Shown here piece by piece: positions 18,901 to 57,330 of a DNA stretch of 64,000 bases (the first letter of the stretch is position 1; each line of letters begins with the position of its first letter). Source of the stretch: Eledone cirrhosa (taxonomy: Eukaryota); assembly GCA_964016885.1 (NCBI GenBank), contig OZ024760.1:29946001-30010000 (forward strand), written 5' to 3'. Both the position numbers and the translations under genes were made by a program. The notes under the pieces were generated by a model that made no database searches, was not told where the DNA came from, and saw nothing but the letters and a program-made list of their open reading frames with translations.

Positions 18901-21205
18901 AATGTAATGTGATGTGTAATGTAATGTAATGTAATGTGTAATCTAATGTAATGTAATGTAATGTAATGTAATGTAATGTAATGTAATGTGTAATGTGTAA
19001 TGTAATGTAATGTAATGTAATGTAATGTAATGTAAAGTAATTAAATGTAATGTAATGTGTAATGTAATGTAATGTAATGTAATGTAATGTAATGTAATGT
19101 AATGTAATGTAATGTGTAATGTAATGTAAAGTAATCTAATGTAATGTAATGTAATGTAATGTAATGTAATGTAATGTGTAATGTAATGTAATGTAATGTA
19201 ATGTGTAATGTAATGTAATGTAATGTAATGTAATGTAATGTAATGTAATGTAATGTAATGTGTAATGTAATGTAATGTAACGTAATGTAATGTGTAATGT
19301 AATGTAATGTAATGTAATGTAATGTTTAATGTAATGTAATGTAATGTAATGTAATGTAATGTAATGTAATGTAATGTAATGTAATGTGTAATGTAATGTA
19401 ATGTAATGTAATGTAATGTGTAATGTAATGTAATGTAATGTGACGTGTAATGTAATGTAATGTAATGTATGATGTAATGTAATGTAATGTAATGTGTAAT
19501 GTAATGTAATGTAATGTTAAGTGTAATGTAATGTGACGTAATATAATGTGTAATGTAATGTAATGTAATGTAATGTGTAATGTAATGTAATGTAATGTAA
19601 CGTAATGTAATTTAATGTAATGTAATGTAATGTATAATGTAATGTAATGTAATGTAATGTATAATGTAATGTAATGTAATGTAATGTAATGTATAATGTA
19701 ATGTAATGTAATGTAACGTAAAGTAATGTGTAATGTAATGTAATGTAATGTATTGTAATGTGTAATGTAATGTAATGTAATGTAATGTAATGTGTAATGT
19801 AATGTAATGTAATGTAATGTAATGTGTAATGTAATGTAATGTAATGTAATGTAATGATATGTAATGTTTAATGTAATGTAACGTAATGAAATGTAATGTA
19901 ATGTAATGTGTAATGTAATGTAATGTAATGTAATGTAATGTAATGTAATGTATAATGTAATGTAATATAATGTAATGTGTAATGTAATGTAATGTAATGT
20001 AATGTAACGTTTAACGTTATGTAATGTAATGTAATGTAATGTGTAATGTAATGTAATGTAATATAATGTAATGTAATGTAATGTAATGTAATGTAATGTA
20101 ATGTAATGTAATGTGTAATGTAATGTAATGTAATGTAATGTAATGGGTAATGTAATGTAATGTAATGTAATGAAATGTAATGTTTAATGTAATGTAACGT
20201 AATGAAATGTAATGTAATGTAATGTAATGTAATGTAATGTAATGTAATGTAAAGTGTAATGTAATGTAATGTAATGTAATGTAATGTAATGTAATGTGTA
20301 ATGTAATGTAATGTAATGTAATGTAACGTTTAATGTAATGTAATGTAATGTGTAATGTAATGTATAATGTAATGTAATGTAATGTAATGTGTAATGTAAT
20401 GTATAATGTAATGTAATGTAATGTAATGTAATGTAATGTAATGTAATGTGTAATGTAATGTAATGTGTAATGTAACGTAATGTAATGTAATGTAATGTGT
20501 AATGTAATGTAAGGTAATGTGTAATGTAATGTAATATAATGTAATGTGTAATGTAATGTGTAATGTAATGTAATGTAATGTTATGTAATGTAATGTAATC
20601 TGTAATGTAATGTAATGTAATGTAACGTTTAACGTTACGTAATGTAATGTAATGTAATGTGTAATGTAATGTAATGTAATGTAATGTGTAATGTAATGTA
20701 ATGTAATGTAATGTAATGTATAATGTAATGTGTAATGTAATGTAATGTAATGTAACGTTTAATGTAATGTAATGTAATGTAATGTAATGTAATGTGTAAT
20801 GTAATGTATAATGTAATGTAATGTAATGTAATGTGTAATGTAATGTAATGTGTAATGTAATGTAATGTAATGTGTAATGTAATGTAATGTGTAATGTAAT
20901 GTAATGTAATGTACAATGTAATGTAACGTAATGTAATGTGTAATGTAATGTAATATAATGTGTAATGTAATGTAATGTAGTGTAATGTAACGTATTGTAA
21001 TGTAATGTAATGTAATGTAATGTGTAATGTAATGTAATGTGTAATGTGTAATGTAATGTGTAATGTAATGTGTAATGTAATGTAATGTATTGTAATATAA
21101 TGTAATTGTTTCTAATTTAGGCACAAGGTCAGCAATTACCCTGTGCATTACTGGTACTTTCTTTTATCGACCCCGTAAGGATGAAAAGCAAAGTCAACCT
21201 CGGTG

Positions 21206-21217
21206 GGATTTGAACTC
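21206..21217 (-). promoter_or_regulatory. RNA polymerase III internal promoter B box (copy 1; GTTCAAATC core intact in all 8 copies)
   Basis: GAGTTCAAATCC on - matches GTTCRANNC and lies 51 nt downstream of the A box. Confidence 0.8.
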
Positions 21218-21268
21218 AGATCGTAAAGGGACGTAACTATGCTAGAAAGCATGGCGTCCGACCCTCTA

Positions 21269-21280
21269 CCGATACTGCCA
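21269..21280 (-). promoter_or_regulatory. RNA polymerase III internal promoter A box (copy 1; present in all 8 copies)
   Basis: TGGCAGTATCGG on -, similar to the TRGCNNARYNNG consensus. It starts about 11 nt from the presumed 5' end (GGCGG at 21290). Confidence 0.65.
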
Positions 21281-24200
21281 ATCCACCGCCGTTTGTAATG
21301 TAATGTAATGTAATGTAATGTAATGTAATGTTTAATGTAATGTAATGTATTTTAATGTAATGTAATGTGTAATGTAATGTAATGTAATGACAATGTAATG
21401 TAATGTGTAATGTAATGTGTAATGTACTGTAATGTGTAATGTAATGTAATGTAATGTAATGTAATGTAATGTAATGTAATGTGTAATGTAATGTAATATA
21501 ATGTAATATAATGTTTAATGTAATGTAATGTAATGTAATGTAATGTAATGTGTGATGTAATGTAATGTAATGTAATGTAATGTAATGTAATGTAATGTGT
21601 AATGTGTAATGTTTAATGTAATGTAATGTAATGTAATGTGTAACGTAATGTAACGTAATGTAATGTAATGTAATGTAATGTGTGATGTAATGTAATGTAA
21701 TGTAATGTAATGTAATATAATGTAATGTAATGTAATGTAATGTAATGTGTAACGTAATGTGTAATATAATGTAATGTAATGTAATGTTATGTAATGTAAT
21801 GTAATGTAATGTGTAATGTAATGTAATGTAATGTGTAATGTAATGTAATGTAATGTAATGTAATGTAATGTAATGTAATGTAATGTGTAATGTGTAATGT
21901 TTAATGTAATGTAATGTAATGTAATGTGTAACGTAATGTAACGTAATGTAATGTAATGTAATGTAATGTGTGATGTAATGTAATGTAATGTAATGTAATG
22001 TAATATAATGTAATGTAATGTAATGTAATGTAATGTGTAACGTAATGTGTAATATAATGTAATGTAATGTAATGTTATGTAATGTAATGTAATGTAATGT
22101 GTAATGTAATGTAATGTAATGTGTAATGTAATGTAATGTAATGTAATGTAATGTGTAATGTAATGTAATGTAATATAATGTAATGTAATGTAATGTAATG
22201 TAATGTAATGTAATGTAATGTAATGTAATGTAATGTGTAATGTAATGTAATGTAATGTAATGTGTAATGTAATGTAATGTAATGTAATGTTATGTTTAAT
22301 GTAAAGTAATGTAATGTAATGTGTAATGTAATGTAATGTAATGTGTAACGTAATGTAATGTAATGTAATGTAATGTAACGTTTAATGTAATGTAATGTAA
22401 TGTAATGTGTAATGTTATGTAATATAATGTATAATGTAATGTAATGTAATGTAATGTAATGTAATGTGTAATGTAATGTGTAATGTAATGTAATGTGTAA
22501 TGTAATGTAATTTAATGTAATGTAATGTGTAATGTAATGTAATGTAATGTTTAATGTAATATAATGTAATGTAATGAAATGTAATGTAACGTGTAATGTA
22601 ATGTAATGTAATGTAATGTAATGTAATGTAATGTAATGTAATGTAATGTGTAATGTAATGTAATGTAATGTAATGTAATGTGTAATGTATTGTAATGTAA
22701 TGTAATGTAATATAAGGTGTAATGTAATGTAATGTAATGTAATGTGTAATGTAATGTAATGTAATGTAATGTAATGTGTAATGTAATGTAATGTAATGTA
22801 ATGTAACGTAATGTAATGTAATGTAATGTAATGTGTAATGTAATGTAATGTACTGTAATGTAATGTAATGTGTAATGTAATTTAATGTAATGTAATGTAA
22901 TGTAATGTAATGTAATGTGTAATGTAATGTAATGTAATGTATGAAGCAATGTAATGTAATGTAATGTAATGTGTAATGTAATGTAATGTAATGTAATGTA
23001 ACGTAATGTAATGTAATGTAATGTAATGTGTAATGTAATGTAATGTACTGTAATGTAATGTAATGTGTAATATAATTTAATGTAATGTAATGTAATGTAA
23101 TGTAATGTAATGTAATGTGTAATGTAATGTAATGTAATGTAATGTAATGTAATGTGTGATGCAATGTAATGTAATGTACTGTAATGTAATGTAATGTAAT
23201 GTAATGTAATGTAATGTAATGTAATGTAATGTAATGTAATGTAATGTAATGTAATGTGTAATGTAATGTAATATAATGTAATGTAATGTAATGTAATGTG
23301 TAATGTAATGTAATGTAATGTAATGTAATGTAATGTAATATGTAATGTAATGTAATGTAATTTAATGTAATGTCTAACGTAATGCAATGTGTAATGTAAT
23401 GTAAAGTAATGTAATGTAATGTGTAATGTAATGTAATGTAATGTATTGTGTCATGTAGTGTAATGTAATGTAATGTGTAATGTAATGTAATGTGTAATGT
23501 AATGTGATGTAATGTAATGTGTAATGTAATGTAATGTGTAATGTAATGTAATGTAATGTAATATAATGTAATGCAATGTAATGTAATGTAACGTAATGTA
23601 ATGTAATGTGTAATGTGTAATGTAATGTAATGTAATGTAATGTGTAATGTAATGTAATGTAACGTGTAATGTAATGTAATGTAATGTAATATAATGTAAT
23701 GTAATATAATGTAATGTAATGTAATGTGTAATGTAATGTAATGTAATGTAATGTAATGTGTAATATAATGTAATGTAATGTAATGTAATGTATAATGTAA
23801 TGTAATGTAATGTAATGTAATGTGTAATGTAATGTAATGTAATGTAAAGTAATGTGTAATGTAATGTAATGTAATGTATTGTAATGTGTAATGTAATGTA
23901 ATGTAATGTAATGTGTAATGTAATGTAATGTAATGTAACGTTTAATGTAATGTAATGTAGTCTAATGTATAAGGTAATGTAATGTAATGTGTAATGTAAT
24001 GTAATGTAATGTAATGTGATGTGTAATGTAATGTAATGTAATGTAATGTAATGTGTAATCTAATGTAATGTAATGTAATGTAATGTAATGTAATGTGTAA
24101 TGTGTAATGTAATGTAATGTAATGTAATGTAATGTAATGTAAGGTAATTAAATGTAATGTAATGTGTAATGTAATGTAATGTAATGTAATGAAATGTAAT

Positions 24201-25980
24201 GTAATGTGTAATGTAATGTAATGTAATGTAATGTAATGTAATGTAATGTAATGTAATGTGTAATGTAAAGTAATGTAATGTAATGTAATGTAATGTAATG
24301 TAATGTAATGTAATGTGTAATGTAATGTAATGTAATGTAATGTGTAATGTAATGTAATGTAATGTAATGTAATGTAATGTAATGTGTAATGTAATGTAAT
24401 GTAACGTAATGTAATGTGTAATGTGATGTAATGTAATGTAATGTAATGTATAATGTAATGTAATGTAATGTAATGTAATGTAATGTAATGTAATGTGTAA
24501 TGTAATGTAATGTAATGTAATGTAATGTAATGTGTAATGTAATGTAATGTAATGTGACGTGTAATGTAATGTAATGTAATGTATAATGTAATGTAATGTA
24601 ATGTAATGTGTAATGTAATGTAATGTAATGTTAAGTGTAATGTAATGTGACGTAATATAATGTGTAATGTAATGTAATGTAATGTAATGTAATGTGTAAT
24701 GTAATGTAATGTAACGTAATGTAATTTAATGTAATGTAATGTAATGTAATGTCTAATGTAATGTAATGTAATGTAATGTATAATGTAATGTAATGTAATG
24801 TAATGTATAATGTAATGTAATGTAAAGTAATGTGTAATGTAATGTAATGTAATGTATTGTAATGTGTAATGTAATGTAATGTAATGTAATGTGTAATGTA
24901 ATGTAATGTAATGTAATGTAATGTAATGTGTAATGTAATGTAATGTAATGTAATGTAATGAAATGTAATGTTTAATGTAATGTAACGTAATGAAATGTAA
25001 TGTAATGTAATGTGTAATGTAATGTAATGTAATGTAATGTAATGTAATGTATAATGTAATGTAATATAATGTAATGTGTAATGTAATGTAATGTAATGTA
25101 ATGTAACGTTTAACGTTATGTAATGTAATGTAATGTAATGTGTAATGTAATGTAATGTAATATAATGTAATGTAATGTAATGTAATGTAATGTAATGTAA
25201 TGTAATGTAATGTAATGTAATGTGTAATGTAATGTAATGTAATGTAATGTAATGTAATGTAATGTGTAATGTAATGTAATGTAATGTAATGAAATGTAAT
25301 GTTTAATGTAATGTAACGTAATAAAATGTAATGTAATGTAATGTAATGTAATGTAAAGTGTAATGTAATGTAATGTAATGTAATGTTATGTAATGTAATA
25401 TAATCTGTAATGTAATGCAATGTAATGTAATGTAACGTTTAACGTTACGTAATGTAATGTAATGTAATGTGTAATGTAATGTAATGTAATGTAATGTGTA
25501 ATGTAATGTAATGTAATGTATAATGTAATGTAATGTAATGTGTAATGTAATGTAATGTAATGTAACGTTTAATGTAATGTAATGTAATGTAATGTAATGT
25601 GTAATGTAATGTATAATGTAATGTAATGTAATGTAATGTAATGTGTAATGTAATGTAATGTGTAATGTAATGTAATGTAATGTGTAATATAATGTAATGT
25701 GTAATGTAATGTAATGTAATGTACAATGTAATGTAATGTAATGTAATGTAATGTGTAATGTAATGTAATGTAATGTAATGTGTAATGTAATGTAACGTAA
25801 TGTAATGTGTAATATAATGTAATATAATGTGTAATGTAATGTAATGTAGTGTAATGTAACGTATTGTAATGTAATGTAATGTAATGTAATGTGTAATGTA
25901 ATGTAATGTGTAATGTGTAATGTAATGTGTAATGTAATGTGTAATGTAATGTAATGTAATGTATTGTAATATAATGTAAT

Positions 25981-26167
25981 TGTTTCTAATTTAGGCACAA
26001 GGTCAGCAATTACCCTGTGCATTACTGGTACTTTCTTTTATCGACCCCGTAAGGATGAAAAGCAAAGTCAACCTCGGTGGGATTTGAACTCAGATCGTAA
26101 AGGGACGTAACTATGCTAGAAAGCATGGCGTCCGACCCTCTACCGATACTGCCAATCCACCGCCGTT
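25981..26167 (-). mobile_element. SINE-like element, copy 2 (subtype I)
   Basis: 187 bp, identical to copy 1 by eye, with the same junctions (GTAAT|TGTTTCT ... CCGCCGTT|TGTAAT). Confidence 0.85.
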
Positions 26168-27670
26168 TGTAATGTAATGTAATGTAATGTAATGTAATGT
26201 TTAATGTAATGTAATGTATTTTAATGTAATGTAATGTGTAATGTAATGTAATGTAATGACAATGTAATGTAATGTGTAATGTAATGTGTAATGTACTGTA
26301 ATGTGTAATGTAATGTAATGTAATGTAATGTAATGTAATGTAATGTAATGTGTAATGTAATGTAATATAATGTAATATAATGTTTAATGTAATGTAATGT
26401 AATGTAATGTAATCTAATGTTTAATGTAATGTAATGTAATGTAATGTAATGTAATGCAATGTAATGTAATGCAATTTGTAATGTAATGTAATGTAATGTA
26501 ATGTAATGTAGTGTAATGTAATTTAATGAAATGTAATGTAATGTAATGTAATGTAATGTAATGTAATGTAATGTAATGTAATGTAATGTAATGCGTAATG
26601 AAATGTAATGTAATGTAATGTAATGTAATGTGTAATGTAATGTAATGTAATGTAATGTAATGTAATGTAATGTGTAATGTAATGTAATGTAATGTAATGT
26701 AATGTGTAATGTAATGTAATGTAATGTAATGTTTAATGTAATGTAATGTAATGTAATGTAATGTAATGTAATGTAATGTAATGTAATTTTTAATGTAATG
26801 TAATGTAATGTAATGTAATGCATAATGTAATGTAATGTAATGTAATGGAATGTAATGTAATGTTTAATGTAATGTAATGTAATGAAATGTAATGTAACGT
26901 GTAATGTAATGTAATGTAATGTGTAACGTAATGTAATGTAATGTAATGTGTAATGTAATGTAATGTAATGAAATGTAATGTTTAATGTAATGTAATGTAA
27001 TGAAATGTAATGTAATGTGTAATGTAATGTAATGTAATGTAATGTAATGTAATGTAATGTGTAATGTAATGTAATGTAATGTAATGTAATGTAATGTAAC
27101 GTTTAACTTTATGTAATGTAATGTAATGTAATGTGTAATGTAATGTAATGTAATATAATGTAATGTAATGTAATGTAATGTAATGTAATGTAATGTAATG
27201 TGTAATGTAATGTAATGTAATGTAACGTGTAATGTAATGTAATGTAATGTAATGTTTAATGTAAAGTAATGTAATGTAATGTGTAATGTAATGTAATGCA
27301 ATGTAATGTAATGTAATGTAATGTGTAATGTAATGTAATGTAATGTAACGTTTAACGTAATGTAATGTAATGTAATGTGTAATGTAATGTAATGTAATGT
27401 GTAATGTAATGTAATGTGTAATGTAATGTAATGTAATGTAATGTATAATGTAATGTAATGTAATGTGTAATGTAATGTAATGTAATGTTATGTGTAATGT
27501 AATGTAATGTAACGTAATGTAATGTGTAATGTAATGTAATGTAATGTGTAATGTAATGTAATGTAATGTAATGTAACGTATTGTAATGTAATGTAATGTG
27601 TAATGTAATGTAATGTAATGTAATGTGTAATGTAATGTGTAATGTAATGTGTAATGTAATGTAATGTAAT

Positions 27671-27857
27671 TGTTTCTAATTTAGGCACAAGGTCAGCAAT
27701 TACCCTGTGCATTACTGGTCCTTTATTTTATCGACCCCATAAGGATGAAAAGCAAAGTCAACCTCGGTGGGATTTGAACTCAGATCGTAAAGGGACGTAA
27801 CTATGCTAGAAAGCATGGCGTCCGACCCTCTACCGATACTGCCAATCCACCGCCGTT
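27671..27857 (-). mobile_element. SINE-like element, copy 3 (subtype II)
   Basis: 187 bp. Differs from subtype I at GGTCCTTTATTTT (vs GGTACTTTCTTTT) and CCCCAT (vs CCCCGT). Confidence 0.85.
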
Positions 27858-30800
27858 TGTAATGTAATGTTATGTAATGTAATGTAATGTAATGTAATGT
27901 AATGTAATGTTTAATGGAATGTAATGTAATTTAATGTAATGTGTAATGTAATGTAATGTAATGACAATGTAATGTAATGTGTAATGTAATGTGTAATGTA
28001 CTGTAATGTGTAATGTAATGTAATGTAATGTAATGTGTAATGTAATGTAATGTAATGTAATATAATGTTTAATGTAATGTAATGTAATGTAATGTAATCT
28101 AATGTTTAATGTAATGTAATGTAATGTAATTTTTAATGTAATGTAATGTAATGTAATGTAATGTAATGTAATGTAATGTAGTGTAATGTAATTTAATGAA
28201 ATGTAATGTAATGTCTAATGTAATGTAATGTAATGTAATGTAATGTAATGTAATGTAATGTAATGTAATGTAATGTAATGCGTAATGAAATGTAATGTAA
28301 TGTAATGTGTAATGTAATGTAATGTAATGTAATGTAATGTAGTGTAATGTAATTTAATGAAATGTAATATAATGTAATGTAATGTAATGTAATGTAATGT
28401 AATGTAATGTAATGCGTAATGAAATGTAATGTAATGTAATGTAATGTGTAATGTAATGTATTGTAATGTAATGTAATGTAATGTAATGTAATGTAATGTT
28501 ATGTTTAATGTAATGTAATGTAATAAAATGTAATTTTTAATGTAATGTAATGTAATGTAATGTAATGCATAATGTAATGTAATGTAATGTAATGTAATGT
28601 TTAATGTAATGTAATGTAATGTAATGAAATGTAATGTAACGTGTAATGTAATGTAATGTAATGTAATGTGTAACGTAATGTAATGTAATGTAATGTAATA
28701 TAATGTGTAATGTAATGTAATGTGTAATGTAATGTAATGTAATGTAATGTAATGTAATGTGTAATGTTATGTAATGTAATGTAATGTTTAATGTAATGTA
28801 ATGTAATGTAATGTAATGTTTAATGTAATGTAATGAAATGTTATGTAACGTGTAATGTAATGTAATGTAATGTGTAACGTAATGTAATGTAATGTAATGT
28901 GTAATGTAATGTAATGTGTAATGTAATGTAATGTAATGTAATGTAATGTAATGTGTAATGTTATGTAATGTAATGTAATGTAATGAAATGTAATGTTTAA
29001 TGTAATGTAATGTAATGTAATGTAATGTAATGTAATGTAATGTAATGTAATGTAATGTAAAGTAATGTAATGTAAAGTAATGTAATGTGTAATGTAATGT
29101 AATGTAATGTAATGTAATGTAATGTAATGTAATGTGTAATGAAATGTAATGTAATGTAATGTAATGTAATGTAATGTAATGTGTAATGAAATGTAATGTA
29201 ACGTAATGTGTAATGTAATGTAATGTAATGTAATGTCATGTAATGTGTAATGTAATGTAATGTAATGTAATGTGTAATGTGTAATGTAATGTAATGTAAT
29301 GTAATGTGTAATGTGTAATGTAATGTAATGTAATGTAATGTTTAATGTAATGTAATGTAATGTAATGTAATGTAATGTAATGTGTAATGTAATGTAATGT
29401 AATGTAATGTAATGTAATGTGTGATGCAATGTAATGTAATGTACTGTAATGTAATGTAATGTAATGCAATGTAATGTAATGTAATGTAATGTAATGTAAT
29501 GTAATGTAATGTGTAATGTAATGTAATATAATGTAATGTAATGTAATGTAATGTGTAATGTAATGTAATGTAATGTAATGTAATGTAATGTAATGTAATA
29601 TGTAATGTAATGTAATGTAATTTAATGTAATGTCTAACGTAATGCAATGTGTAATGTAATGTAAAGTAATGTAATGTAATGTGTAATGTAATGTAATGTA
29701 ATGTATTGTGTCATGTAGTGTAATGTAATGTAATGTGTAATGTAATGTAATGTGTAATGTAATGTGATGTAATGTAATGTGTAACGTAATGTAATGTGTA
29801 ATGTAATGTAATGTAATGTAATATAATGTAATGCAATGTAATGTAATGTAACGTAATGTAATGTAATGTGTAATGTGTAATGTAATGTAATGTAATGTAA
29901 TGTGTAATGTAATGTAATGTAACGTGTAATGTAATGTAATGTAATGTAATATAATGTAATGTAATATAATGTAATGTAATGTAATGTGTAATGTAATGTA
30001 ATGTAATGTAATGTGTAATATAATGTAATGTAATGTAATGTAATGTATAATGTAATGTAATGTAATGTAATGTAATGTGTAATGTAATGTAATGTAATGT
30101 AAAGTAATGTGTAATGTAATGTAATGTAATGTATTGTAATGTGTAATGTAATGTAATGTAATGTAATGTGTAATGTAATGTAATGTAATGTAACGTTTAA
30201 TGTAATGTAATGTAGTCTAATGTATAAGGTAATGTAATGTAATGTGTAATGTAATGTAATGTAATGTAATGTGATGTGTAATGTAATGTAATGTAATGTA
30301 ATGTAATGTGTAATCTAATGTAATGTAATGTAATGTAATGTAATGTAATGTGTAATGTGTAATGTAATGTAATGTAATGTAATGTAATGTAATGTAAGGT
30401 AATTAAATGTAATGTAATGTGTAATGTAATGTAATGTAATGTAATGAAATGTAATGTAATGTGTAATGTAATGTAATGTAATGTAATGTAATTTAATGTA
30501 ATGTAATGTAATGTGTAATGTAAAGTAATGTAATGTAATGTAATGTAATGTAATGTAATGTAATGTAATGTGTAATGTAATGTAATGTAATGTAATGTGT
30601 AATGTAATGTAATGTAATGTAATGTAATGTAATGTAATGTGTAATGTAATGTAATGTAACGTAATGTAATGTGTAATGTGATGTAATGTAATGTAATGTA
30701 ATGTATAATGTAATGTAATGTAATGTAATGTAATGTAATGTAATGTAATGTAATGTGTAATGTAATGTAATGTAATGTAATGTAATGTAATGTGTAATGT

Positions 30801-32230
30801 AATGTAATGTAATGTGACGTGTAATGTAATGTAATGTAATGTATAATGTAATGTAATGTAATGTAATGTGTAATGTAATGTAATGTAATGTTAAGTGTAA
30901 TGTAATGTGACGTAATATAATGTGTAATGTAATGTAATGTAATGTAATGTAATGTGTAATGTAATGTAATGTAACGTAATGTAATTTAATGTAATGTAAT
31001 GTAATGTAATGTCTAATGTAATGTAATGTAATGTAATGTATAATGTAATGTAATGTAATGTAATGTATAATGTAATGTAATGTAAAGTAATGTGTAATGT
31101 AATGTAATGTAATGTATTGTAATGTGTAATGTAATGTAATGTAATGTAATGTGTAATGTAATGTAATGTAATGTAATGTAATGTGTAATGTAATGTAATG
31201 TAATGTAATGTAATGAAATGTAATGTTTAATGTAATGTAACGTAATGAAATGTAATGTAATGTAATGTGTAATGTAATGTAATGTAATGTAATGTAATGT
31301 AATGTATAATGTAATGTAATATAATGTAATGTGTAATGTAATGTAATGTAATGTAATGTAACGTTTAACGTTATGTAATGTAATGTAATGTAATGTGTAA
31401 TGTAATGTAATGTAATATAATGTAATGTAATGTAATGTAATGTAATGTAATGTAATGTAATGTAATGTAATGTGTAATGTAATGTAATGTAATGTAATGT
31501 AATGTAATGTAATGTGTAATGTAATGTAATGTAATGTAATGAAATGTAATGTTTAATGTAATGTAACGTAATAAAATGTAATGTAATGTAATGTAATGTA
31601 ATGTAAAGTGTAATGTAATGTAATGTAATGTAATGTTATGTAATGTAATATAATCTGTAATGTAATGCAATGTAATGTAATGTAACGTTTAACGTTACGT
31701 AATGTAATGTAATGTAATGTGTAATGTAATGTAATGTAATGTAATGTGTAATGTAATGTAATGTAATGTATAATGTAATGTAATGTAATGTGTAATGTAA
31801 TGTAATGTAATGTAACGTTTAATGTAATGTAATGTAATGTAATGTAATGTGTAATGTAATGTATAATGTAATGTAATGTAATGTAATGTAATGTGTAATG
31901 TAATGTAATGTGTAATGTAATGTAATGTAATGTGTAATATAATGTAATGTGTAATGTAATGTAATGTAATGTACAATGTAATGTAATGTAATGTAATGTA
32001 ATGTGTAATGTAATGTAATGTAATGTAATGTGTAATGTAATGTAACGTAATGTAATGTGTAATATAATGTAATATAATGTGTAATGTAATGTAATGTAGT
32101 GTAATGTAACGTATTGTAATGTAATGTAATGTAATGTAATGTGTAATGTAATGTAATGTGTAATGTGTAATGTAATGTGTAATGTAATGTGTAATGTAAT
32201 GTAATGTAATGTATTGTAATATAATGTAAT

Positions 32231-45700: not shown

Positions 45701-48700
45701 TAATGTAATGTAATGTAATGTGTAATGTGTAATGTAATTTAATGTAATGTAATGTAATGTAATGTAATGTGTAATGTAATGTCATGTAATGTAAAGTAAT
45801 GTGTAATGTAATGTAATGTAATGTGTAATGTAATGTAATGTAATGTAATGTAATGTAATGTATAATGTAATGTAATGTAATGTAAAGTAATGTGTAATGG
45901 AAAGTATTGTAATGTGTAATGTGTAATGTAATGTAATGTAATGTAATGTAATGTAATGTAATGTAATATGTAATGTAATGTAATGTAATGTAAAGTAATG
46001 TGTAATGTAATGTAATTATAATGTAATGTAATGTAATGTAAAGTAATGTGTAATGTAATGTAATGTAATGTAATGTGTAATGTAATGTAATTTAATGTAG
46101 TGTAATGTATAATGTAATGTAATGTAATGTGTAATGTAATGTAATGTAATGTAATATAATGTAATGTAATGTAATGTAATGTAATGTGTAATGTAATGTA
46201 ATGTAATGTAATGTGTAATGTAATTTAATGTAATGTAATGTGTAATGTAATGTAATGTAATGTGTAATGTAATGTAATGTTATGTAATGTAATGTATAAT
46301 GTAATGTAATGTAATGTGTAATGTAATGTAATGTAATGTAATGTAATGTAATGTAATGTGTAATGTAATGTAATGTAATGTGTAATGTAATGTAATGTAA
46401 TGTAATGTAATGTAATGTAATGTAATGTAATGTGTAATGTAATGTAATGTAATGTAATGTGTAATGTAATGTATTGTAATGCAATGTAATGTATAAGGTA
46501 ATGTAATGTAATGTAATGTGTAATGTAATGTAATGTAATGTAAAGTAATGTAATGTAATATAATGTAATGTGTAATGTAATGTAATGTAATGTAATGTGT
46601 AATGTAATGTAATGTAATGTAATGTAATGTGTCATGTAGTGTAATGTAATGTAACGTAATATGTAATGTAATGTAATGTGTAATGTAATGTAACGCAATG
46701 TAATGTAATGTAATGTGTAATGTAGTGTAATGTAATGTAATGTAATGTAATGTAATGTAATGCAATGCAATGCAATGTAATGTAATGTAATGTAAAGTAT
46801 TGTAATGTGTAATGTGTAATGTAATGTAATGTAATGTAATGTAATGTAATGTGTAATGTAATGTAATGTAATGTAGTCTAACGTGTAATGTAATGTAACG
46901 TGTAGTGTAATGTAATGTAATGTAATGTAATGTGTAATGTAATGTCATGTAATGTAATGTAATGTGTAATGTAATGTAATGTGTAATGCAATGTCATGTA
47001 ATGTAATGTAATGTGTAATGTAATGTAATGTAATGTGTAATGTAATGTAATGTAATGAAATGTAATGTAATGTAATGTAATGTAATGTATAATGTAATGT
47101 AATGTAATGTAAAGTAATGTGTAATGGAAAGTATTGTAATGTGTAATGTGTAATGTGTAATGTAATGTAATGTAATGTAATGTAATGTAATGTAATGTAA
47201 TGTAATGTAATGTAATATGTAATGTAATGTAATGTAATGTAAAGTAATGTGTAATGTAATGTAATTATAATGTAATGTAATGTAATGTAAAGTAATGTGT
47301 AATGTAATGTAATGTAATGTAATGTGTAATGTAATGTAATTTAATGTAGTGTAATGTATAATGTAATGTAATGTAATGTGTAATGTAATGTAATGTAATG
47401 TAATATAATGTAATGTAATGTAATGTAATGTAATGTGTAATGTAATGTAATGTAATGTGTAATGTAATTTAATGTAATGTAATGTGTAATGTAATGTAAT
47501 GTAATGTGTAATGTAATGTAATGTTATGTAATGTAATGTATAATGTAATGTAATGTAATGTGTAATGTAATGTAATTTAATGTAATGTAATGTGTAATGT
47601 AATGTAATGTAATGTGTAATGTAATGTAATGTAATGTAATGTAATGTAATGTAATGTAATGTAATGTAATGTAATGTAATGTAATGTAATATAATGTAAT
47701 GTAATGTGTAATGTAATGTAATGTAATGTAATGTAATGTGTAATGTAATGTATTGTAATGTAATGTAATATATAAGTTAATGTAATGTAATGTAATGTGT
47801 AATGTAATGTAATGTAATGTAAAGTAATGTAATGTAATGTAATGTAATGTGTAATGTGATGTAATGTAACGTAATGTGTAATGTAATGTAATGTAATGTA
47901 ATGTGTCATGTAGTGTAATGTAATGTAACGTAATATGTAATGTAATGTAATGTGTAATGTAATGTAACGCAATGTAATGTAATGTAATGTGTAATGTAGT
48001 GTAATGTAATATAATGTAATGTAATGTAATGCAATGCAATGCAATGTAATGTAATGTAATGTAAAGTATTGTAATGTGTAATGTGTAATGTAATGTAATG
48101 TAATGTAATGTAATGTGTAATGTAATGTAATGTAATGTAGTGTAACGTGTAATGTAATGTAACGTGTAGTGTAATGTAATGTAATGTAATGTAATGTGTA
48201 ATGTAATGTCATGTAATGTCATGTAATGTAAAGTAATGTGTAATGTAATGTAATGTAATGTGTAATGTAATGTAATGTAATGTAATGTAATGTAATGTAA
48301 TGTAATGTAATGTATAATGTAATGTAATGTAATGTAATGTAATGTAATGTATAATGTAATGTAATGTAATGTAAAGTAATGTGTAATGGAAAGTATTGTA
48401 ATGTGTAATGTGTAATGTAATGTAATGTAATGTAATGTAATGTAATGTAATGTAATATGTAATGTAATGTAATGTAATGTAAAGTAATGTGTAATGTAAT
48501 GTAATTATAATGTAATGTAATGTAATGTAAAGTAATGTGTAATGTAATGTAATGTAATGTAATGTGTAATGTAATGTAATTTAATGTAGTGTAATGTATA
48601 ATGTAATGTAATGTAATGTGTAATGTAATGTAATGTAATGTAATGTAATATAATGTAATGTAATGTAATGTAATGTAATGTGTAATGTAATGTAATGTAA

Positions 48701-51700
48701 TGTGTAATGTAATTTAATGTAATGTAATGTGTAATGTAATGTAATGTAATGTGTAATGTAATGTAATGTTATGTAATGTAATGTATAATGTAATGTAATG
48801 TAATGTGTAATGTAATGTAATGTAATGTAATGTAATGTAATGTGTAATGTAATGTAATGTAATGTGTAATGTAATGTAATGTAATGTAATGTAATGTAAT
48901 GTAATATAATGTAATGTAATGTGTAATGTAATGTAATGTAATGTAATGTAATGTGTAATGTAATGTAATGTAATGTAATGTAATGTGTAATGCAATGTAA
49001 TGTAATGTAATGTAATGTAATGTAATGTAATGTAATGTAATGTAATGTAATGTAATGTAATGTAATGTAGTGCAATGTAGTGTAATGTGAAATGTAATGT
49101 AATGTAATGTGTAATGTAATTTAATGTAATGTAATGTAATGTAATTTAATGTAATGTCTAATGTAATGTAATGTAATGTAATGTAATGTGTAATGTAATG
49201 TAATGTAATGTAATGTGTAATGTAATGTAATGTAATGTAATGTGTCATGTAGTGTAATGTAATGTAACGTAATATGTAATGTAATGTAATGTGTAATGTA
49301 ATGTAACGCAATGTAATGTAATGTAATGTGTAATGTAGTGTAATGTAATTTAATGTAATGTAATGTAATGCAATGCAATGTAATGTAATGTAATGTAAAG
49401 TATTGTAATGTGTAATGTGTAATGTAATGTAATGTAATGTAATGTGTAATGTAATGTAATGTAATGTAGTGTAACGTGTAATGTAATGTAACGTGTAGTG
49501 TAATGTAATGTAATGTAATGTAATGTAATGTGTAATGTAATGTCATGTAATGTAAAGTAATGTGTAATGTAATGTAATGTAATGTGTAATGTAATGTAAT
49601 GTAATGTAAAGTAATGTGTAATGGAAAGTATTGTAATGTGTAATGTGTAATGTAATGTAATGTAATGTAATGTAATGTGTAATGTAATGTAATGTGTAAT
49701 ATAATGTAATGTAATGTAATGTAATGTAATATAATATAATGTGTAATGTAATGTAATGTAATGTAATGTAATGCAATGTGTAATGTAATGTAATGTAATG
49801 TAATGTAATGTAATGTAATGTAATGTGTAATGTAATGTAATGTTATATGTAATGTGTAATGTAATGTAATGTAATGTAACGTAATGTGTAATTTAATGTA
49901 ATGTAATGTAATGTGTAATGTAATGTAATGTAATGAAATGTGTAATGTAATGTAATGTAATGTTTAATGTAATGTAATGTAATGTAATGTGTAATGTAAT
50001 GTAATGTAATGTAATGTAATGTGTAATGTAATGTAATGTAATGTGTAAAGTAATGTAATGTAATGTAATGTAATGTAATGTAATGTGTAATGTGTAATGT
50101 AATGTAATGTAATGTAATGTAATGTAATGTAATGTGTAATGTGTAATGTAATTTAATGTAATGTAATGTAATGTAATGTAATGTGTAATGTAATGTCATG
50201 TAATGTAAAGTAATGTGTAATGTAATGTAATGTAATGTGTAATGTAATGTAATGTAATGAAATGTGTAATGTAATGTAATGTAATGTTTAATGTAATGTA
50301 ATGTAATGTAATGTAATGTAATGTGTAATGTAATGTAATGTAATGTAATGTGTAATGTAATGTAATGTAATGTGTAAAGTAATGTAATGTAATGTAATGT
50401 AATGTAATGTAATGTGTAATGTGTAATGTAATTTAATGTAATGTAATGTAATGTAATGTAATGTAATGTGTAATGTAATGTAATATAATGTAATGTAATG
50501 TAATGTAATGTGTAATGTAATGTAATGTAATGTAATGTAATGTGTAATGTAATGTAATGTAATGTAATGTAATGTGTAATACAATGTAATGTAATGTAAT
50601 GTAATGTAATGTAATGTAATGTAATGTAATGTAATGTAATGTAATGTAGTGCAATGTAGTGTAATGTGAAATGTAATGTAATGTAATGTGTAATGTAATT
50701 TAATGTAATGTAATGTAATGTAATGTAATTTAATGTAATGTAATGTAAGGTAATGTAATATGTAACGTAATGTAATGTAATGTAATGTAATTTAATGTAA
50801 TGTCTAATGTAATGTAATGTAATGTAATGTGTAATGTAATGTAATGTAATGTAATGTGTAATGTAATGTAATGTAATGTAATGTAATGTGTCATGTAGTG
50901 TAATGTAATGTAACGTAATATGTAATGTAATGTAATGTGTAATGTAATGTAACGCAATGTAATGTAATGTAATGTGTAATGTAGTGTAATGTAATTTAAT
51001 GTAATGTAATGTAATGCAATGCAATGTAATGTAATGTAATGTAAAGTATTGTAATGTGTAATGTGTAATGTAATGTAATGTAATGTGTAATGTAATGTAA
51101 TGTAATGTAGTGTAACGTGTAATGTAATGTAACGTGTAGTGTAATGTAATGTAATGTAATGTAATGTAATGTGTAATGTAATGTCATGTAATGTAAAGTA
51201 ATGTGTAATGTAATGTAATGTAATGTGTAATGTAATGTAATGTAATGTAATGTAATGTAATGTAATGTAATGTATAATGTAATGTAATGTAATGTAAAGT
51301 AATGTGTAATGGAAAGTATTGTAATGTGTAATGTGTAATGTAATGTAATGTAATGTAATGTAATGTAATGTGTAATGTAATGTAATGTTTAATGTAATGT
51401 AATGTAATGTAATGTAATGTGTAATATAATGTAATGTAATGTAATGTAATGTAATATAATATAATGTGTAATGTAATGTAATGTAATGTAATGTAATGTA
51501 ATGTAATGCAATGTGTAATGTAATGTAATGTAATGTAATGTAATGTAATGTAATGTAATGTGTAATGTAATGTAATGTAATATGTAATGTGTAATGTAAT
51601 GTAATGTAATGTAATGTAACGTAATGTGTAATTTAATGTAATGTAATGTAATGTGTAATGTAATGTAATGTAATGAAATGTGTAATGTAATGTAATGTAA

Positions 51701-54700
51701 TGTTTAATGTAATGTAATGTAATGTAATGTGTAATGTAATGTAATGTAATGTGTAATGTAATGTAATGTAATGTGTAAAGTAATGTAATGTAATGTAATG
51801 TAATGTAATGTAATGGGTAATGTGTAATGTAATGTAATGTAATGTAATGTAATGTAATGTAATGTGTAATGTGTAATGTAATTTAATGTAATGTAATGTA
51901 ATGTAATGTAATGTGTAATGTAATGTCATGTAATGTAAAGTAATGTGTAATGTAATGTAATGTAATGTGTAATGTAATGTAATGTAATGTAATGTAATGT
52001 AATGTATAATGTAATGTAATGTAATGTAAAGTAATGTGTAATGGAAAGTATTGTAATGTGTAATGTGTAATGTAATGTAATGTAATGTAATGTAATGTAA
52101 TGTAATGTAATATGTAATGTAATGTAATGTAATGTAAAGTAATGTGTAATGTAATGTAATTATAATGTAATGTAATGTAATGTAAAGTAATGTGTAATGT
52201 AATGTAATGTAATGTAATGTGTAATGTAATGTAATTTAATGTAGTGTAATGTATAATGTAATGTAATGTAATGTGTAATGTAATGTAATGTAATGTAATA
52301 TAATGTAATGTAATGTAATGTAATGTAATGTGTAATGTAATGTAATGTAATGTAATGTGTAATGTAATTTAATGTAATGTAATGTGTAATGTAATGTAAT
52401 GTAATGTGTAATGTAATGTAATGTTATGTAATGTAATGTATAATGTAATGTAATGTAATGTGTAATGTAATGTAATGTAATGTAATGTAATGTAATGTAA
52501 TGTGTAATGTAATGTAATGTAATGTGTAATGTAATGTAATGTAATGTAATGTAATGTAATGTAATGTAATGTAATGTGTAATGTAATGTAATGTAATGTA
52601 ATGTGTAATGTAATGTATTGTAATGCAATGTAATGTATAAGGTAATGTAATGTAATGTAATGTGTAATGTAATGTAATGTAATGTAAAGTAATGTAATGT
52701 AATATAATGTAATGTGTAATGTAATGTAATGTAATGTAATGTGTAATGTAATGTAATGTAATGTAATGTAATGTGTCATGTAGTGTAATGTAATGTAACG
52801 TAATATGTAATGTAATGTAATGTGTAATGTAATGTAACGCAATGTAATGTAATGTAATGTGTAATGTAGTGTAATGTAATGTAATGTAATGTAATGTAAT
52901 GTAATGCAATGCAATGCAATGTAATGTAATGTAATGTAAAGTATTGTAATGTGTAATGTGTAATGTAATGTAATGTAATGTAATGTAATGTAATGTGTAA
53001 TGTAATGTAATGTAATGTAGTCTAACGTGTAATGTAATGTAACGTGTAGTGTAATGTAATGTAATGTAATGTAATGTGTAATGTAATGTCATGTAATGTA
53101 ATGTAATGTGTAATGTAATGTAATGTGTAATGCAATGTCATGTAATGTAATGTAATGTGTAATGTAATGTAATGTAATGTGTAATGTAATGTAATGTAAT
53201 GAAATGTAATGTAATGTAATGTAATGTAATGTATAATGTAATGTAATGTAATGTAAAGTAATGTGTAATGGAAAGTATTGTAATGTGTAATGTGTAATGT
53301 AATGTAATGTAATGTAATGTAATGTAATGTAATGTAATGTAATGTAATGTAATATGTAATGTAATGTAATGTAATGTAAAGTAATGTGTAATGTAATGTA
53401 ATTATAATGTAATGTAATGTAATGTAAAGTAATGTGTAATGTAATGTAATGTAATGTAATGTGTAATGTAATGTAATTTAATGTAGTGTAATGTATAATG
53501 TAATGTAATGTAATGTGTAATGTAATGTAATGTAATGTAATATAATGTAATGTAATGTAATGTAATGTAATGTGTAATGTAATGTAATGTAATGTGTAAT
53601 GTAATTTAATGTAATGTAATGTGTAATGTAATGTAATGTAATGTGTAATGTAATGTAATGTTATGTAATGTAATGTATAATGTAATGTAATGTAATGTGT
53701 AATGTAATGTAATTTAATGTAATGTAATGTGTAATGTAATGTAATGTAATGTGTAATGTAATGTAATGTAATGTAATGTAATGTAATGTAATGTAATGTA
53801 ATGTAATGTAATGTAATGTAATGTAATGTAATATAATGTAATGTAATGTGTAATGTAATGTAATGTAATGTAATGTAATGTGTAATGTAATGTATTGTAA
53901 TGTAATGTAATATATAAGTTAATGTAATGTAATGTAATGTGTAATGTAATGTAATGTAATGTAAAGTAATGTAATGTAATGTAATGTAATGTGTAATGTG
54001 ATGTAATGTAACGTAATGTGTAATGTAATGTAATGTAATGTGTCATGTAGTGTAATGTAATGTAACGTAATATGTAATGTAATGTAATGTGTAATGTAAT
54101 GTAACGCAATGTAATGTAATGTAATGTGTAATGTAGTGTAATGTAATATAATGTAATGTAATGTAATGCAATGCAATGCAATGTAATGTAATGTAATGTA
54201 AAGTATTGTAATGTGTAATGTGTAATGTAATGTAATGTAATGTAATGTAATGTGTAATGTAATGTAATGTAATGTAGTGTAACGTGTAATGTAATGTAAC
54301 GTGTAGTGTAATGTAATGTAATGTAATGTAATGTGTAATGTAATGTCATGTAATGTAAAGTAATGTGTAATGTAATGTAATGTAATGTGTAATGTAATGT
54401 AATGTAATGTAATGTAATGTAATGTAATGTAATGTATAATGTAATGTAATGTAATGTAATGTAATGTAATGTAATGTATAATGTAATGTAATGTAATGTA
54501 AAGTAATGTGTAATGGAAAGTATTGTAATGTGTAATGTGTAATGTAATGTAATGTAATGTAATGTAATGTAATGTAATGTAATATGTAATGTAATGTAAT
54601 GTAATGTAAAGTAATGTGTAATGTAATGTAATTATAATGTAATGTAATGTAATGTAAAGTAATGTGTAATGTAATGTAATGTAATGTAATGTGTAATGTA

Positions 54701-55050
54701 ATGTAATTTAATGTAGTGTAATGTATAATGTAATGTAATGTAATGTGTAATGTAATGTAATGTAATGTAATGTAATATAATGTAATGTAATGTAATGTAA
54801 TGTAATGTGTAATGTAATGTAATGTAATGTGTAATGTAATTTAATGTAATGTAATGTGTAATGTAATGTAATGTAATGTGTAATGTAATGTAATGTTATG
54901 TAATGTAATGTATAATGTAATGTAATGTAATGTGTAATGTAATGTAATGTAATGTAATGTAATGTAATGTGTAATGTAATGTAATGTAATGTGTAATGTA
55001 ATGTAATGTAATGTAATGTAATGTAATGTAATGTAATATAATGTAATGTA
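42750..55050. repeat. Recent tandem duplication with a ~6.14-kb period inside domain C
   Basis: Identical ORF-track entries offset by 6144 (45489/51633, 46092/52236, 46225/52369, 46280/52424). Rare markers AATGGGTAAT at ~45668/51812 and TATATAAGTT at ~47770/53911. Confidence 0.9.
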
Positions 55051-57144
55051 ATGTGTAATGTAATGTAATGTAATGTAATGTGTAATGTAATGTATTGTAA
55101 TGTAATGTAATGTATAAGGTAATGTAATGTAATGTAATGTGTAATGTAATGTAATGTAATGTAAAGTAATGTAATGTAATGTAATGTAATGTAATGTAAT
55201 GTGTAATGTAATGTAATGTAATGTAATGTGTAATGTAATGTAATGTAATGTAATGTGTCATGTAGTGTAATGTAATGTAACGTAATATGTAATGTAATGT
55301 AATGTGTAATGTAATGTAACACAATGTAATGTAATGTAATGTGTAATGTAGTGTAATGTAATGTAATGTAATGTAATGCAATGCAATGCAATGTAATGTA
55401 ATGTAATGTAAAGTATTGTAATGTGTAATGTGTAATGTAATGTAATGTAATGTAATGTGTAATGTAATGTAATGTAATATAGTGTAACGTGTAACGTAAT
55501 GTAACGTGTAGTGTAATGTAATGTAATGTAATGTGTAATGTAATGTCATGTAATGTAAAGTAATGTGTAATGTAATGTAATGTAATGTGTAATGTAATGT
55601 AATGTAATGTAATGTAATGTAATGTAATGTATAATGTAATGTAATGTAATGTAAAGTAATGTGTAATGGAAAGTATTGTAATGTGTAATGTGTAATGTAA
55701 TGTAATGTAATGTAATGTAATGTAATGTAATGTAATGTAATATGTAATGTAATGTAATGTAATGTAAAGTAATGTGTAATGTAATGTAATTATAATGTAA
55801 TGTAATGTAATGTAAAGTAATGTAATGTGTAATGTAATGTAATTTAATGTAGTGTAATGTATAATGTAATGTAATGTAATGTGTAATGTAATGTAATGTA
55901 ATGTAATATAATGTAATGTAATGTAATGTAATGTAATGTGTAATGTAATGTAATGTAATGTGTAATGTAATTTAATGTAATGTAATGTGTAATGTAATGT
56001 AATGTAATGTGTAATGTAATGTAATGTTATGTAATGTAATGTATAATGTAATGTAATGTAATGTGTAATGTAATGTAATGTAATGTAATGTAATGTAATG
56101 TGTAATGTAATGTAATGTAATGTGTAATGTAATGTAATGTAATGTAATGTAATGTAATGTAATGTAATGTAATGTAATGTAATGTAATGTAATGTAATGT
56201 AATGTAATATAATGTAATGTAATGTGTAATGTAATGTAATGTAATGTAATATGTAATGTAATGTATTGTAATGTAATGTAATGTATAAGGTAATGTAATG
56301 TAATGTAATGTGTAATGTAATGTAATGTAATGTAAAGTAATGTAATGTAATGTAATGTAATGTGTAATGGAATGTAATGTAATGTAACGTAATGTAATGT
56401 GTAATGTAATGTAATGTAATGTAATGTGTACTGTAATGTAATGTAATGTAAAGTAATGTAATGTAAAGTAATGTAATGTAATGTAATGTAATGCAATGTA
56501 ATATAATGTAATGTGTAATGAAATGTAATGTAATGTAATGTAATGTGTAATGTAATGTAATGTAATGTAATGTAATGTGTAATGTAATGTAATGTAATGT
56601 AATGTAATGTAATGTGTAATGTAATGTAATGTAATGTAATGTAATGTGTAATGTAATGTAATGTAGTGTAATGTATAATGTAATGTAATGTAATGTGTAA
56701 TGTAATGTAATGTAATGTAATGTAATGTAATGTGTAATGTAATGTAATGTAATGTAACGTAATGTAACGTAATGTGATGTAATGTGTAATGTAATGTAAT
56801 GTAAATTAATGTGTAATGTAATGTAATTTAATGTAATGTAACGTGTAATGAAATGTAATGTAATGTAATGTAATATAATGTGTAATGTAATGTGTAATGT
56901 AATGTAATGTAATGTAATGTGTAATGTAATGTAATGTTATGTAATGTAATGTATAATGTAATGTAATGTAATGTAATGTAATGTGTAATGTAACGTAATG
57001 TAATGCAATGTAATATGTAATGTAACGTAATGTAATGTGTAATGTAATGTAATGTGTAATGTAATGTAATGTAATGTGTAATGTCATGTAATGTAATATA
57101 ATGTGCAATGTAATGTAATGTAATGTATTGTAATGTAATGTAAT

Positions 57145-57330
57145 TGTTTCTAATTTAGGCACTCGTCAACAATTACCCTGTGCATTACTGGTACTTTATT
57201 TTATCGACCCCGTAAGGATGAAAAGCAAAGTCAACCTCGGTGTGATTTGAACTCAGATCGTAAAGGGACGTAACTATGCTGGAAAGCATAGCGTCCGACC
57301 ATCTACCGATACTGCCAATCCACCGCCGTT
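57145..57330 (-). mobile_element. SINE-like element, copy 8 (subtype III)
   Basis: 186 bp with the subtype III diagnostic sites and private variants GTCAACAATT, CGGTGTGATTT and GACCATCTACC. Confidence 0.85.

What the first reader, a model, noticed from the sequence alone, without database searches (positions are those of the whole stretch)
21107..57330. A Pol III-promoter SINE built into a satellite array: eight co-oriented copies from one ancestral insertion
Seen: eight 186-187-bp copies on the same strand with base-identical junctions and shared flanking variants. Most are preceded by TATTGTAAT[A/G]TAATGTAAT. Copies 1-5 are followed by GACAATG...GTACTG and copies 6-8 by AATTTAACG. Established: independent retrotransposition gives variable orientation, ends and flanks. 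Inference: the SINE is part of the macro-repeat unit and was multiplied by unequal exchange or replication-based duplication. The result is a composite satellite with intact A/B boxes every 1.6-15 kb. tRNA genes and B boxes act as heterochromatin barriers in fission yeast centromeres, so a role as an internal promoter or boundary is plausible but unshown.
Basis: partly seen in the sequence, partly recalled or inferred. Interest (0 to 1): 0.75.

Follow-up and report, generated by a model that had tools for sequence, protein, structure and literature searches.

The report
Megabase satellite intron carrying SINE passengers
The eight short jumping-gene copies come from one insertion that was likely copied passively as a 1.3-million-base simple repeat grew, and that repeat lies between the exons of what is likely one octopus-type gene, so it would be a giant satellite intron like those of fruit-fly fertility genes; whether the gene is still read through it is untested.

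Summary
Observation confirmed. The eight copies belong to one insertion lineage: 77 copies over 744 kb, one 17-bp target-site duplication, five shared substitutions, tree support 100/99. They sit in a single 1.296-Mb (TAATG)n array, the only large one in the assembly. Co-orientation is not diagnostic: all 169 copies, from at least 16 separate insertions, point the same way, because the family inserts at ATTA, present on one strand only. There is no fixed macro-unit (SINEs 2.3% of bases, gaps up to 175 kb). Fragments lacking boxes were amplified too, and 69 of 77 lineage copies carry an internal TTTT, so a Pol III or barrier role has no support. New: seven open, phase-1 exons flank the array on both sides; four match one Octopus sinensis protein in order. 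The array therefore fills a predicted 1,298,682-bp intron of a single-copy gene, with the G-poor strand as sense. No RNA evidence was obtained, and a possible upstream 3' end exists. The scan had no note on this locus; it had noted a 66-kb satellite intron in a flatworm.

The parts
1..64000 (-). (TAATG)n satellite, read (ATTAC)n on the strand of the predicted host gene; part of a 1,296,286-bp array (G000:C21:29,659,555-30,955,840) inside a predicted 1,298,682-bp intron whose exons lie outside the window
   Evidence: array; exons, intron length
21107..21292 (-). SINE copy 1 (lineage E02), full length
21090..21106 (-).
21293..21309 (-).
   Evidence: exact in 64 of 77 copies
21269..21280 (-). A-box-like motif of copy 1 (box consensus recalled; imperfect match)
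21206..21215 (-). B-box-like motif of copy 1 (box consensus recalled)
21184..21187 (-). Internal TTTT made by the lineage's shared C>T change; a likely early Pol III stop (terminator rule recalled)
   Evidence: 69 of 77 E02 copies
25981..26166 (-). SINE copy 2, identical to copy 1
27671..27856 (-). SINE copy 3, identical to copy 5
32231..32416 (-). SINE copy 4; with copy 5 it repeats the copy 2-3 block about 6.2 kb further on
   Evidence: (1.7 kb of left and 0.8 kb of right variant pattern shared with copy 2)
33835..34020 (-). SINE copy 5
35910..36094 (-). SINE copy 6, sub-lineage with a 1-bp deletion near the 3' end
41918..42102 (-). SINE copy 7, same sub-lineage
57145..57329 (-). SINE copy 8, same sub-lineage; one change in the B-box-like motif

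Best explanation
The eight copies descend from one insertion of a common short SINE and were likely carried along passively by local tandem duplications of a single 1.3-Mb (TAATG)n satellite, which lies in a predicted giant intron of a single-copy octopod gene. Step 1 (shown): the family inserts with target-site duplications that begin ATTA; the satellite offers ATTA about 420 times more often on one strand, so every insertion lands in the same direction and register. That the SINE's ATT tail pairs with the cut target is inferred. Step 2 (shown): one such insertion, E02, now has 77 copies over 744 kb, and other insertions have 1-25 copies. Step 3 (inferred): kb-scale unequal exchange or slippage did the copying, blind to the SINE's boxes. 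Step 4 (anatomy shown, use inferred): exons on both sides belong to one gene; if the long form is made, RNA polymerase II crosses 1.3 Mb of (AUUAC)n, a strand almost free of splice-site dinucleotides, which would be why this orientation is tolerated.
For: One lineage: the exact 5' junction occurs 55 times in the genome, all 55 in this array on one strand; a lineage-specific 27-mer occurs 40 times, 39 in the array, and the other is a different subfamily with its own duplication; E02 is one side of a branch, 100/99, 200 of 200 bootstrap trees. Target rule: 20 of 30 dispersed copies show a flanking duplication starting ATTA at the 3' end (6 spurious-looking, 4 none); ATTA sites 214,901 versus 513 by strand; 169 of 169 array copies co-oriented, from 23 junction types, 16 after conservative lumping, while the family is balanced genome-wide (29,336 versus 29,408); the opposite-orientation junction pattern has 0 matches in the genome. 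No targeting: at most 13 junction types in 1.3 Mb carry the family 31-mer, against 19.6 matches per Mb genome-wide. Passive copying: exact 150-mer repeats lie mostly 1-30 kb apart; satellite variants without any SINE are multiplied likewise (28 of 323 have 10 or more copies); fragments lacking the A box (6 and 3 copies) or both boxes (8 copies) were amplified. Intron: seven exons with AG/GT ends, all phase 1, 1,290 nt without a stop; X and Y (one side) match residues 14-39 and 40-124, and B and C (other side) match best at 336-397 and 396-459, of one O. sinensis protein; the gene is single-copy (3 matches, all here). With SINEs masked, the sense strand has 1.2% G and 132 GTRA words, against 214,002 on the other strand.
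Against: No transcript joins the exons across the array in any data seen. A roughly 300-bp stretch upstream of the array resembles the gene's presumed 3' end (score 115, best of 200 shuffles 50), so a short form could stop before the array. Exons Z and D have no clear counterpart in the homolog, A only a weak one, and the protein is internally repetitive, so the order rests on best matches. The homolog is a computed gene model and the only one found. Neutral survival of exons A-D is not negligible (0.03-0.27; B and C alone 0.12-0.47). E02's 77 copies exceed every one of 323 exact satellite markers (largest 50), and box positions carry 14 substitutions against 18.6 expected: weak room for selection. 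153 of 169 SINE copies put an AATAAA on the gene's sense strand. Array length rests on one assembly.
Confidence: 0.75

Rival explanations
1. The SINE copies are functional Pol III promoters or TFIIIC-bound barriers that were selected as part of a composite satellite.
For: Both boxes are intact in 119 of 169 copies and 68 of 77 E02 copies; 14 box substitutions against 18.6 expected; E02 is more numerous than any exact satellite marker. Barrier activity of tRNA genes and B boxes is recalled; one search gave only a search listing.
Against: Intact boxes are expected in copies 1.4% from their ancestor. No regular spacing (CV 2.4, gap up to 175 kb). Box-less fragments amplified. Internal TTTT in 69 of 77. 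At least 58,744 family copies exist elsewhere.
Confidence: 0.07
2. The SINE part is as in the best explanation, but the array has broken the gene: only a short upstream form is made, or none, and exons Z and A-D are young relics.
For: A 3'-end-like duplicate lies between exons Y and Z; neutral survival of A-D is 0.03-0.27; sense AATAAA in 153 SINE copies; no clean terminal exon was found after D.
Against: All five exons from Z to D keep frame and splice dinucleotides; no open coding stretch or clear acceptor was seen ahead of the upstream duplicate; the sense strand is the one nearly free of splice words.
Confidence: 0.35
3. The copies are repeated retrotranspositions from a source gene, targeted to this satellite.
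For: At least 16 separate insertions exist in the array, and 7 of 16 chose the rare ATTAT monomer (3.4% of sites, p 5e-7).
Against: For the eight window copies: same 5' junction, same 17-bp duplication and shared flank variants; the lineage haplotype is confined to the array; insertion density is not above the genome average.
Confidence: 0.03
4. The array itself grew out of an ATTAT microsatellite at the tail or target site of the same-family SINE that sits at its right edge.
For: A SINE at G000:C21:30,955,865-30,956,042 (7 of 178 from the family majority) runs through its 15-bp duplication into the array; both edges are ATTAT-type; 2 of 7 small ATTAC runs elsewhere touch this family in the same sense, and a third touches it in the opposite sense; one marker of the older long subfamily has 0 matches in the array.
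Against: The family prefers ATTAT, so an insertion at an ATTAT-rich edge of an existing array is not rare; the order of events cannot be read from one genome. This is compatible with the best explanation, not exclusive of it.
Confidence: 0.2
5. The copy number or the array length is an assembly artefact.
For: One assembly; satellites can be collapsed or doubled.
Against: No N in 1.3 Mb; 13,034 of 17,770 sampled 150-mers are unique and only 10 repeat pairs lie 100 kb or more apart; E02 copies form nested sub-lineages with private deletions.
Confidence: 0.05

Closest known systems
Drosophila genes with satellite-filled gigantic introns: Y-linked kl-3 and kl-5 (PMC6508621, passages; PMC6508613, first part); autosomal Pzl, Myo81F, Mitf (PMC11207136, passages); intronic TEs in these genes (PMC13370334, abstract)
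   Same: Small exons separated by megabases of a simple AT-rich pentamer satellite, with transposon passengers inside the intron.
   Different: There the introns are shown to be transcribed; here transcription is untested. Here one intron holds one single-strand-oriented array of a mollusc gene of unknown function; sex linkage and tissue are unknown.
Human HSat1B/DYZ2 and HSat3-associated Alu fragments (10.1101/2022.12.01.518724, passages)
   Same: A SINE amplified inside satellite DNA by tandem duplication; SINE copies interleaved with a pentamer satellite.
   Different: DYZ2 is a homogenised 2.5-kb unit with an old Alu fragment in every copy. Here there is no fixed unit, the SINEs are young, and several separate insertions are amplified to different degrees.
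Cuscuta europaea CUS-TR24 arrays with L1-CS LINEs (PMC8091179, passages)
   Same: Recurrent insertions at a target motif in the monomer give mostly one orientation; segmental duplication follows.
   Different: L1-CS is strongly enriched at the satellite (91%); this SINE is not enriched. Here one insertion dominates through amplification.
RTE-related SINEs whose duplication start matches their microsatellite tail (PMC6007223, abstract and sections 16-17)
   Same: Tail sequence and first bases of the target-site duplication agree.
   Different: The partner LINE of this SINE was not identified; RTE dependence is not shown.
SINE-derived satellites of squamates (PMC10702118, abstract)
   Same: A link between SINEs and tandem repeats.
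   Different: There the repeat unit is a piece of the SINE; here the SINE is a 2.3% passenger in an unrelated pentamer array.

Membership tests
SINE (non-autonomous retroposon) | Short, non-coding, high-copy, dispersed on both strands | tested here: met
   58,744 exact 31-mer matches, 29,336 forward and 29,408 reverse
SINE (non-autonomous retroposon) | Target-site duplications, simple-repeat tail, 5' truncations | tested here: met
   20 of 30 dispersed copies with a duplication starting ATTA; (ATT)n tails; truncated copies
tRNA-derived SINE | Head with A and B boxes at tRNA spacing, homologous to a tRNA | tested here: inconclusive
   Box-like motifs at positions 11 and about 75 (consensus recalled). 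ARAGORN found 0 genes in the window, Rfam 0 matches at E up to 10 on 401 bases
tRNA-derived SINE | Transcribed by Pol III | not testable with these tools
   Needs ChIP or small-RNA data; internal TTTT in 69 of 77 E02 copies argues against full-length RNA from this lineage
Named octopus SINE families (OK, OR1, OR2; Ceph-SINE) | Sequence match to the published consensus | not testable with these tools
   No Dfam, Repbase or SINEBase here; the 1994 paper was seen only as a reference line; names partly recalled
RTE-mobilised SINE | 3' end shared with an RTE LINE of the same genome | tested here: inconclusive
   30 top RVT_1 loci of 118,944 candidates were examined; the LINE seen in most of them ends in (ATT)n but shares no 3' sequence with the SINE
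Composite satellite with a SINE subunit (HSat1B type) | Fixed repeat unit containing the SINE in each copy | tested here: not met
   Gaps 0.3-175 kb, CV 2.4, SINE 2.3% of bases; shared flank patterns of window copies reach at most 1.7 kb
Satellite-targeting retroelement (L1-CS type) | Enrichment of separate insertions in the satellite | tested here: not met
   At most 13 junction types per 1.3 Mb with the family 31-mer, against 19.6 matches per Mb genome-wide
Intron gigantism with simple satellite (kl-3/kl-5 type) | Megabase simple satellite between exons of one gene | tested here: met
   1,298,682 bp from GT to AG between exons Z and A; exons on both sides match one homolog in order; rests on a computed homolog
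Intron gigantism with simple satellite (kl-3/kl-5 type) | Intron transcribed and spliced as one unit | not testable with these tools
   No RNA run was on hand
Intron gigantism with simple satellite (kl-3/kl-5 type) | Spermatocyte expression, loop structure, Y linkage | not testable with these tools
   No expression or cytology data
Centromeric satellite with tRNA-type barriers | Same satellite on most chromosomes; CENP-A domain bounded by B boxes | tested here: not met
   Only the first part was tested: 14,186 of 14,255 (TAATG)8 matches and 333 of 333 matches of a 34-mer lie in this one array. CENP-A not testable

The most novel reading that the evidence does not exclude
A cephalopod gene is transcribed and spliced across a recently grown 1.3-Mb (AUUAC)n intron, a Y-loop-like giant transcription unit outside flies. 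The array expanded from a microsatellite in the one orientation that presents almost no splice signals, possibly starting at a SINE tail, and its SINE lineages record the order of growth.
Probability: 0.4. Interest if true: 0.8.

Novelty: new member of a known kind. Interest (0 to 1): 0.55.

Why it matters
Why megabase satellite introns arise and how cells tolerate them is open, and the worked examples in the papers read are Drosophila genes whose introns are old. Here a gap-free 1.3-Mb simple-satellite intron is predicted in a mollusc, with unique flanks, a homolog in a relative and at least 16 internal SINE lineages that act as markers of how the array grew. One RT-PCR and one strand-specific RNA-FISH would show whether it is crossed. 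The locus also gives a clean warning: shared orientation and 3' junctions of retroposons in a strand-asymmetric satellite do not show common ancestry or selection. If the gene is not crossed, it is a case of a gene cut by runaway satellite growth.

Tried and rejected
tRNA and Rfam scans: nothing. Sequencing runs: no RNA holder listed. Laying four runs on the copy-1 stretch: one 54-base contig of run X1 (depth 331) covers 21266-21312 across the 5' junction without a difference, but with fewer than 31 letters a side, so it is not counted as bridging. Laying runs X5, X1, X2 and X6 on exon A: 0 records in all four, which the tool says can be false; no inference drawn. Partner LINE: not found among 30 loci; my recalled RTE link stays unproven. 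Purging of AATAAA from the satellite's sense strand: 0 seen, 16.2 expected, but 17 of 214 comparable double variants are also at zero, so not significant. SINE tail as (ATTAC)n in general: rejected, dispersed tails are (ATT)n. Exon A alone found no homolog; Pfam gave no match over its cut-off for six exon peptides; the Atlas gave no usable hit for the homolog. No first coding exon was found in 200 kb upstream and no clean last exon. Ten literature searches listed no paper on this satellite, this SINE lineage or a satellite intron in a cephalopod; subscription papers are not covered and no supplements were opened.
Full report
1. Observation. The window is one (TAATG)n satellite, about 80% exact pentamer. 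Copies differ at 0-10 positions. Copies 4-5 repeat the copy 2-3 block about 6.2 kb further on.

2. The element. It reads on the minus strand, has A- and B-box-like motifs (consensus recalled) and belongs to a very common family: a 31-mer has 58,744 exact matches, balanced between strands. ARAGORN and Rfam see nothing. Dispersed copies end in (ATT)n, and 20 of 30 examined have a flanking duplication that begins ATTA at the 3' end; 6 gave spurious-looking matches and 4 none. This is a SINE inserted by target-primed reverse transcription. Agreement of tail and duplication start is described for RTE-related SINEs (PMC6007223, sections 16-17), but no partner LINE was found here.

3. The array. The window is G000:C21:29,946,001-30,010,000. 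I fetched the whole array: 29,659,555-30,955,840, 1,296,286 bp, one orientation, no N. It is the only large one in the assembly: 14,186 of 14,255 (TAATG)8 matches and 333 of 333 matches of a variant 34-mer lie in it.

4. One ancestor for the eight. The exact 5' junction has 55 matches in the genome, all in the array. Allowing variants, 77 copies (E02) span 744 kb, share five substitutions against the family majority and average 1.4% from their own majority. They form one side of a branch at 100/99 in a tree of 111 distinct rows (163 near-full-length rows de-duplicated; 18 truncated array copies and 1 dispersed row left out; bootstrap not fully settled). A lineage 27-mer has 39 of 40 matches in the array; the other is a different subfamily with its own duplication.

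5. Orientation proves nothing. The array holds 169 copies, all co-oriented, in 23 junction types with 77, 25, 10, 10, 10, 8, 6, 3, 3, 3, 2 copies and 12 singletons. Lumping types that could derive from each other leaves 16 (my judgement); many have their own duplications of 14-23 bp that include a variant monomer. Sixteen of 16 in one direction has p 3e-5 if random, but ATTA occurs 214,901 times on that strand and 513 on the other. Seven of 16 sit at the rare ATTAT monomer, the motif most dispersed copies use. The opposite junction has 0 matches in the genome. Insertion density is no higher than the genome's.

6. Passenger, not subunit. SINEs are 2.3% of the array; gaps have median 2.7 kb, maximum 175 kb, CV 2.4. 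Exact repeats lie mostly 1-30 kb apart. Of 323 complex satellite variants 163 are single and 28 have 10 or more copies, the largest 50, a spread like that of the SINE types, although E02's 77 is above all of them; a 186-bp marker stays recognisable where an exact word does not. Fragments without the A box or without both boxes were amplified 3-8 times; box positions carry 14 of 149 substitutions against 18.6 expected, about one standard deviation low by my arithmetic. A shared C>T gives 69 of 77 E02 copies an internal TTTT just after the B box.

7. The array lies inside a predicted gene. About 50 bp beyond the left edge, on the minus strand, a splice acceptor opens a 150-nt exon (A), followed by exons B, C and D; 2.3 kb beyond the right edge lies exon Z, and further up Y and X. 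All seven have AG/GT ends, are phase 1 at both ends, and give 429 codons without a stop; introns are 974, 10,273, 1,298,682, 3,222, 201 and 443 bp. Y, Z, A, B and C share a short repeat motif. The one homolog found is a 619-aa Octopus sinensis model, XP_036368543.1, named 'proteoglycan 4-like' by its source; X, Y, B and C match it in order at 58, 66, 52 and 48%. The gene is single-copy. The sense strand reads (ATTAC)n: with SINEs masked it has 1.2% G, 0 GTAAG and 132 GTRA words, against 1,385 and 214,002 on the other strand. I infer that this orientation is the one a spliceosome could ignore. Against an active long form: a 3'-end-like duplicate between Y and Z, weak or no homolog match for Z, A and D, AATAAA in 153 SINE copies, and neutral survival of A-D of 0.03-0.27 for 3.9-1.4% divergence, with the caveat that open exons are the ones that get noticed.

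8. Origin. Both edges are ATTAT-type microsatellite, and a same-family SINE at the right edge runs through its duplication into the array. Growth from such a microsatellite is likely; seeding by that SINE is possible but not separable from insertion at a preferred site.

9. Comparison. The SINE part resembles Alu in human HSat1B and HSat3 and oriented LINEs in Cuscuta CUS-TR24, but fails the fixed-unit and enrichment tests. The intron part resembles Drosophila kl-3 and kl-5 in anatomy; transcription is untested. Papers seen: PMC6007223 abstract and two sections; PMC13282606, PMC5786205, PMC4758252, PMC8091179, PMC6508621, PMC11207136 and 10.1101/2022.12.01.518724 passages; PMC10702118 and PMC13370334 abstracts; PMC6508613 first of two parts. 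No supplements were opened. Ten searches listed no report of this locus. The scan's own notes held nothing near this place and a 66-kb satellite intron in a flatworm.

10. Verdict. The finding as framed is real but ordinary: a passively amplified insertion with no sign of a Pol III role (about 0.3 alone). Its setting, a predicted 1.3-Mb simple-satellite intron in an octopod gene with internal lineage markers, is the part worth following. Overall 0.55; new member of a known kind.

Noticed in passing
G000:C21:30,346,516-30,346,584: A 69-bp fragment of a second repeat family, single copy, is the only other foreign insert seen in the array; its repeated end faces the same way as the SINE tails.
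   Followed up: partly
G000:C21:30,955,865-30,956,042 (L237:5865-6042): Same-family SINE at the array's right edge, with a 15-bp duplication that merges into the first monomers.
   Followed up: partly
L280 (G000:C5:120,792,001-120,792,900): A 5'-truncated SINE is extended at its truncation point by nine GTAAT units inside its own duplication, next to the SINE's internal GTAAT word: the pentamer can apparently arise from the SINE during insertion, in the opposite sense to the big array.
   Followed up: no
L244-L273: A LINE family with many intact 945-aa frames (endonuclease plus reverse transcriptase) ends in (ATT)n like the SINE but shares no 3' sequence with it; candidate partner, clade not determined.
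   Followed up: partly
G000:C21:30,965,100-30,965,450 and 29,653,300-29,653,640: Two diverged, roughly 300-bp stretches, one on each side of the array, look like duplicated 3' ends of the gene; unexplained.
   Followed up: partly
G000:C21:29,729,488-29,786,530: Two E02 sub-lineages with private deletions (35 bp in 7 copies, 8 bp in 7 copies) were amplified locally.
   Followed up: yes
G000:C21 about 30.16-30.33 Mb: Runs of the variant monomer CAATG recur through a SINE-poor part of the array, a sub-domain with its own history; a short TCATG run sits at window 35798-35837.
   Followed up: no
L228:1800-3060 and L237:6120-8100: The neighbouring introns hold other tandem arrays (a unit of about 40 bp, and a GA-rich one), so this gene's introns are generally repeat-filled.
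   Followed up: no
G000:C21:29,642,335-29,644,800: An LTR-retrotransposon-like element lies about 9 kb past the gene's presumed 3' end; observed only.
   Followed up: no
G000:C1:228,254,444-228,254,803: Four matches of the SINE 3' end about 110 bp apart: a small tandem repeat made of SINE sequence.
   Followed up: no
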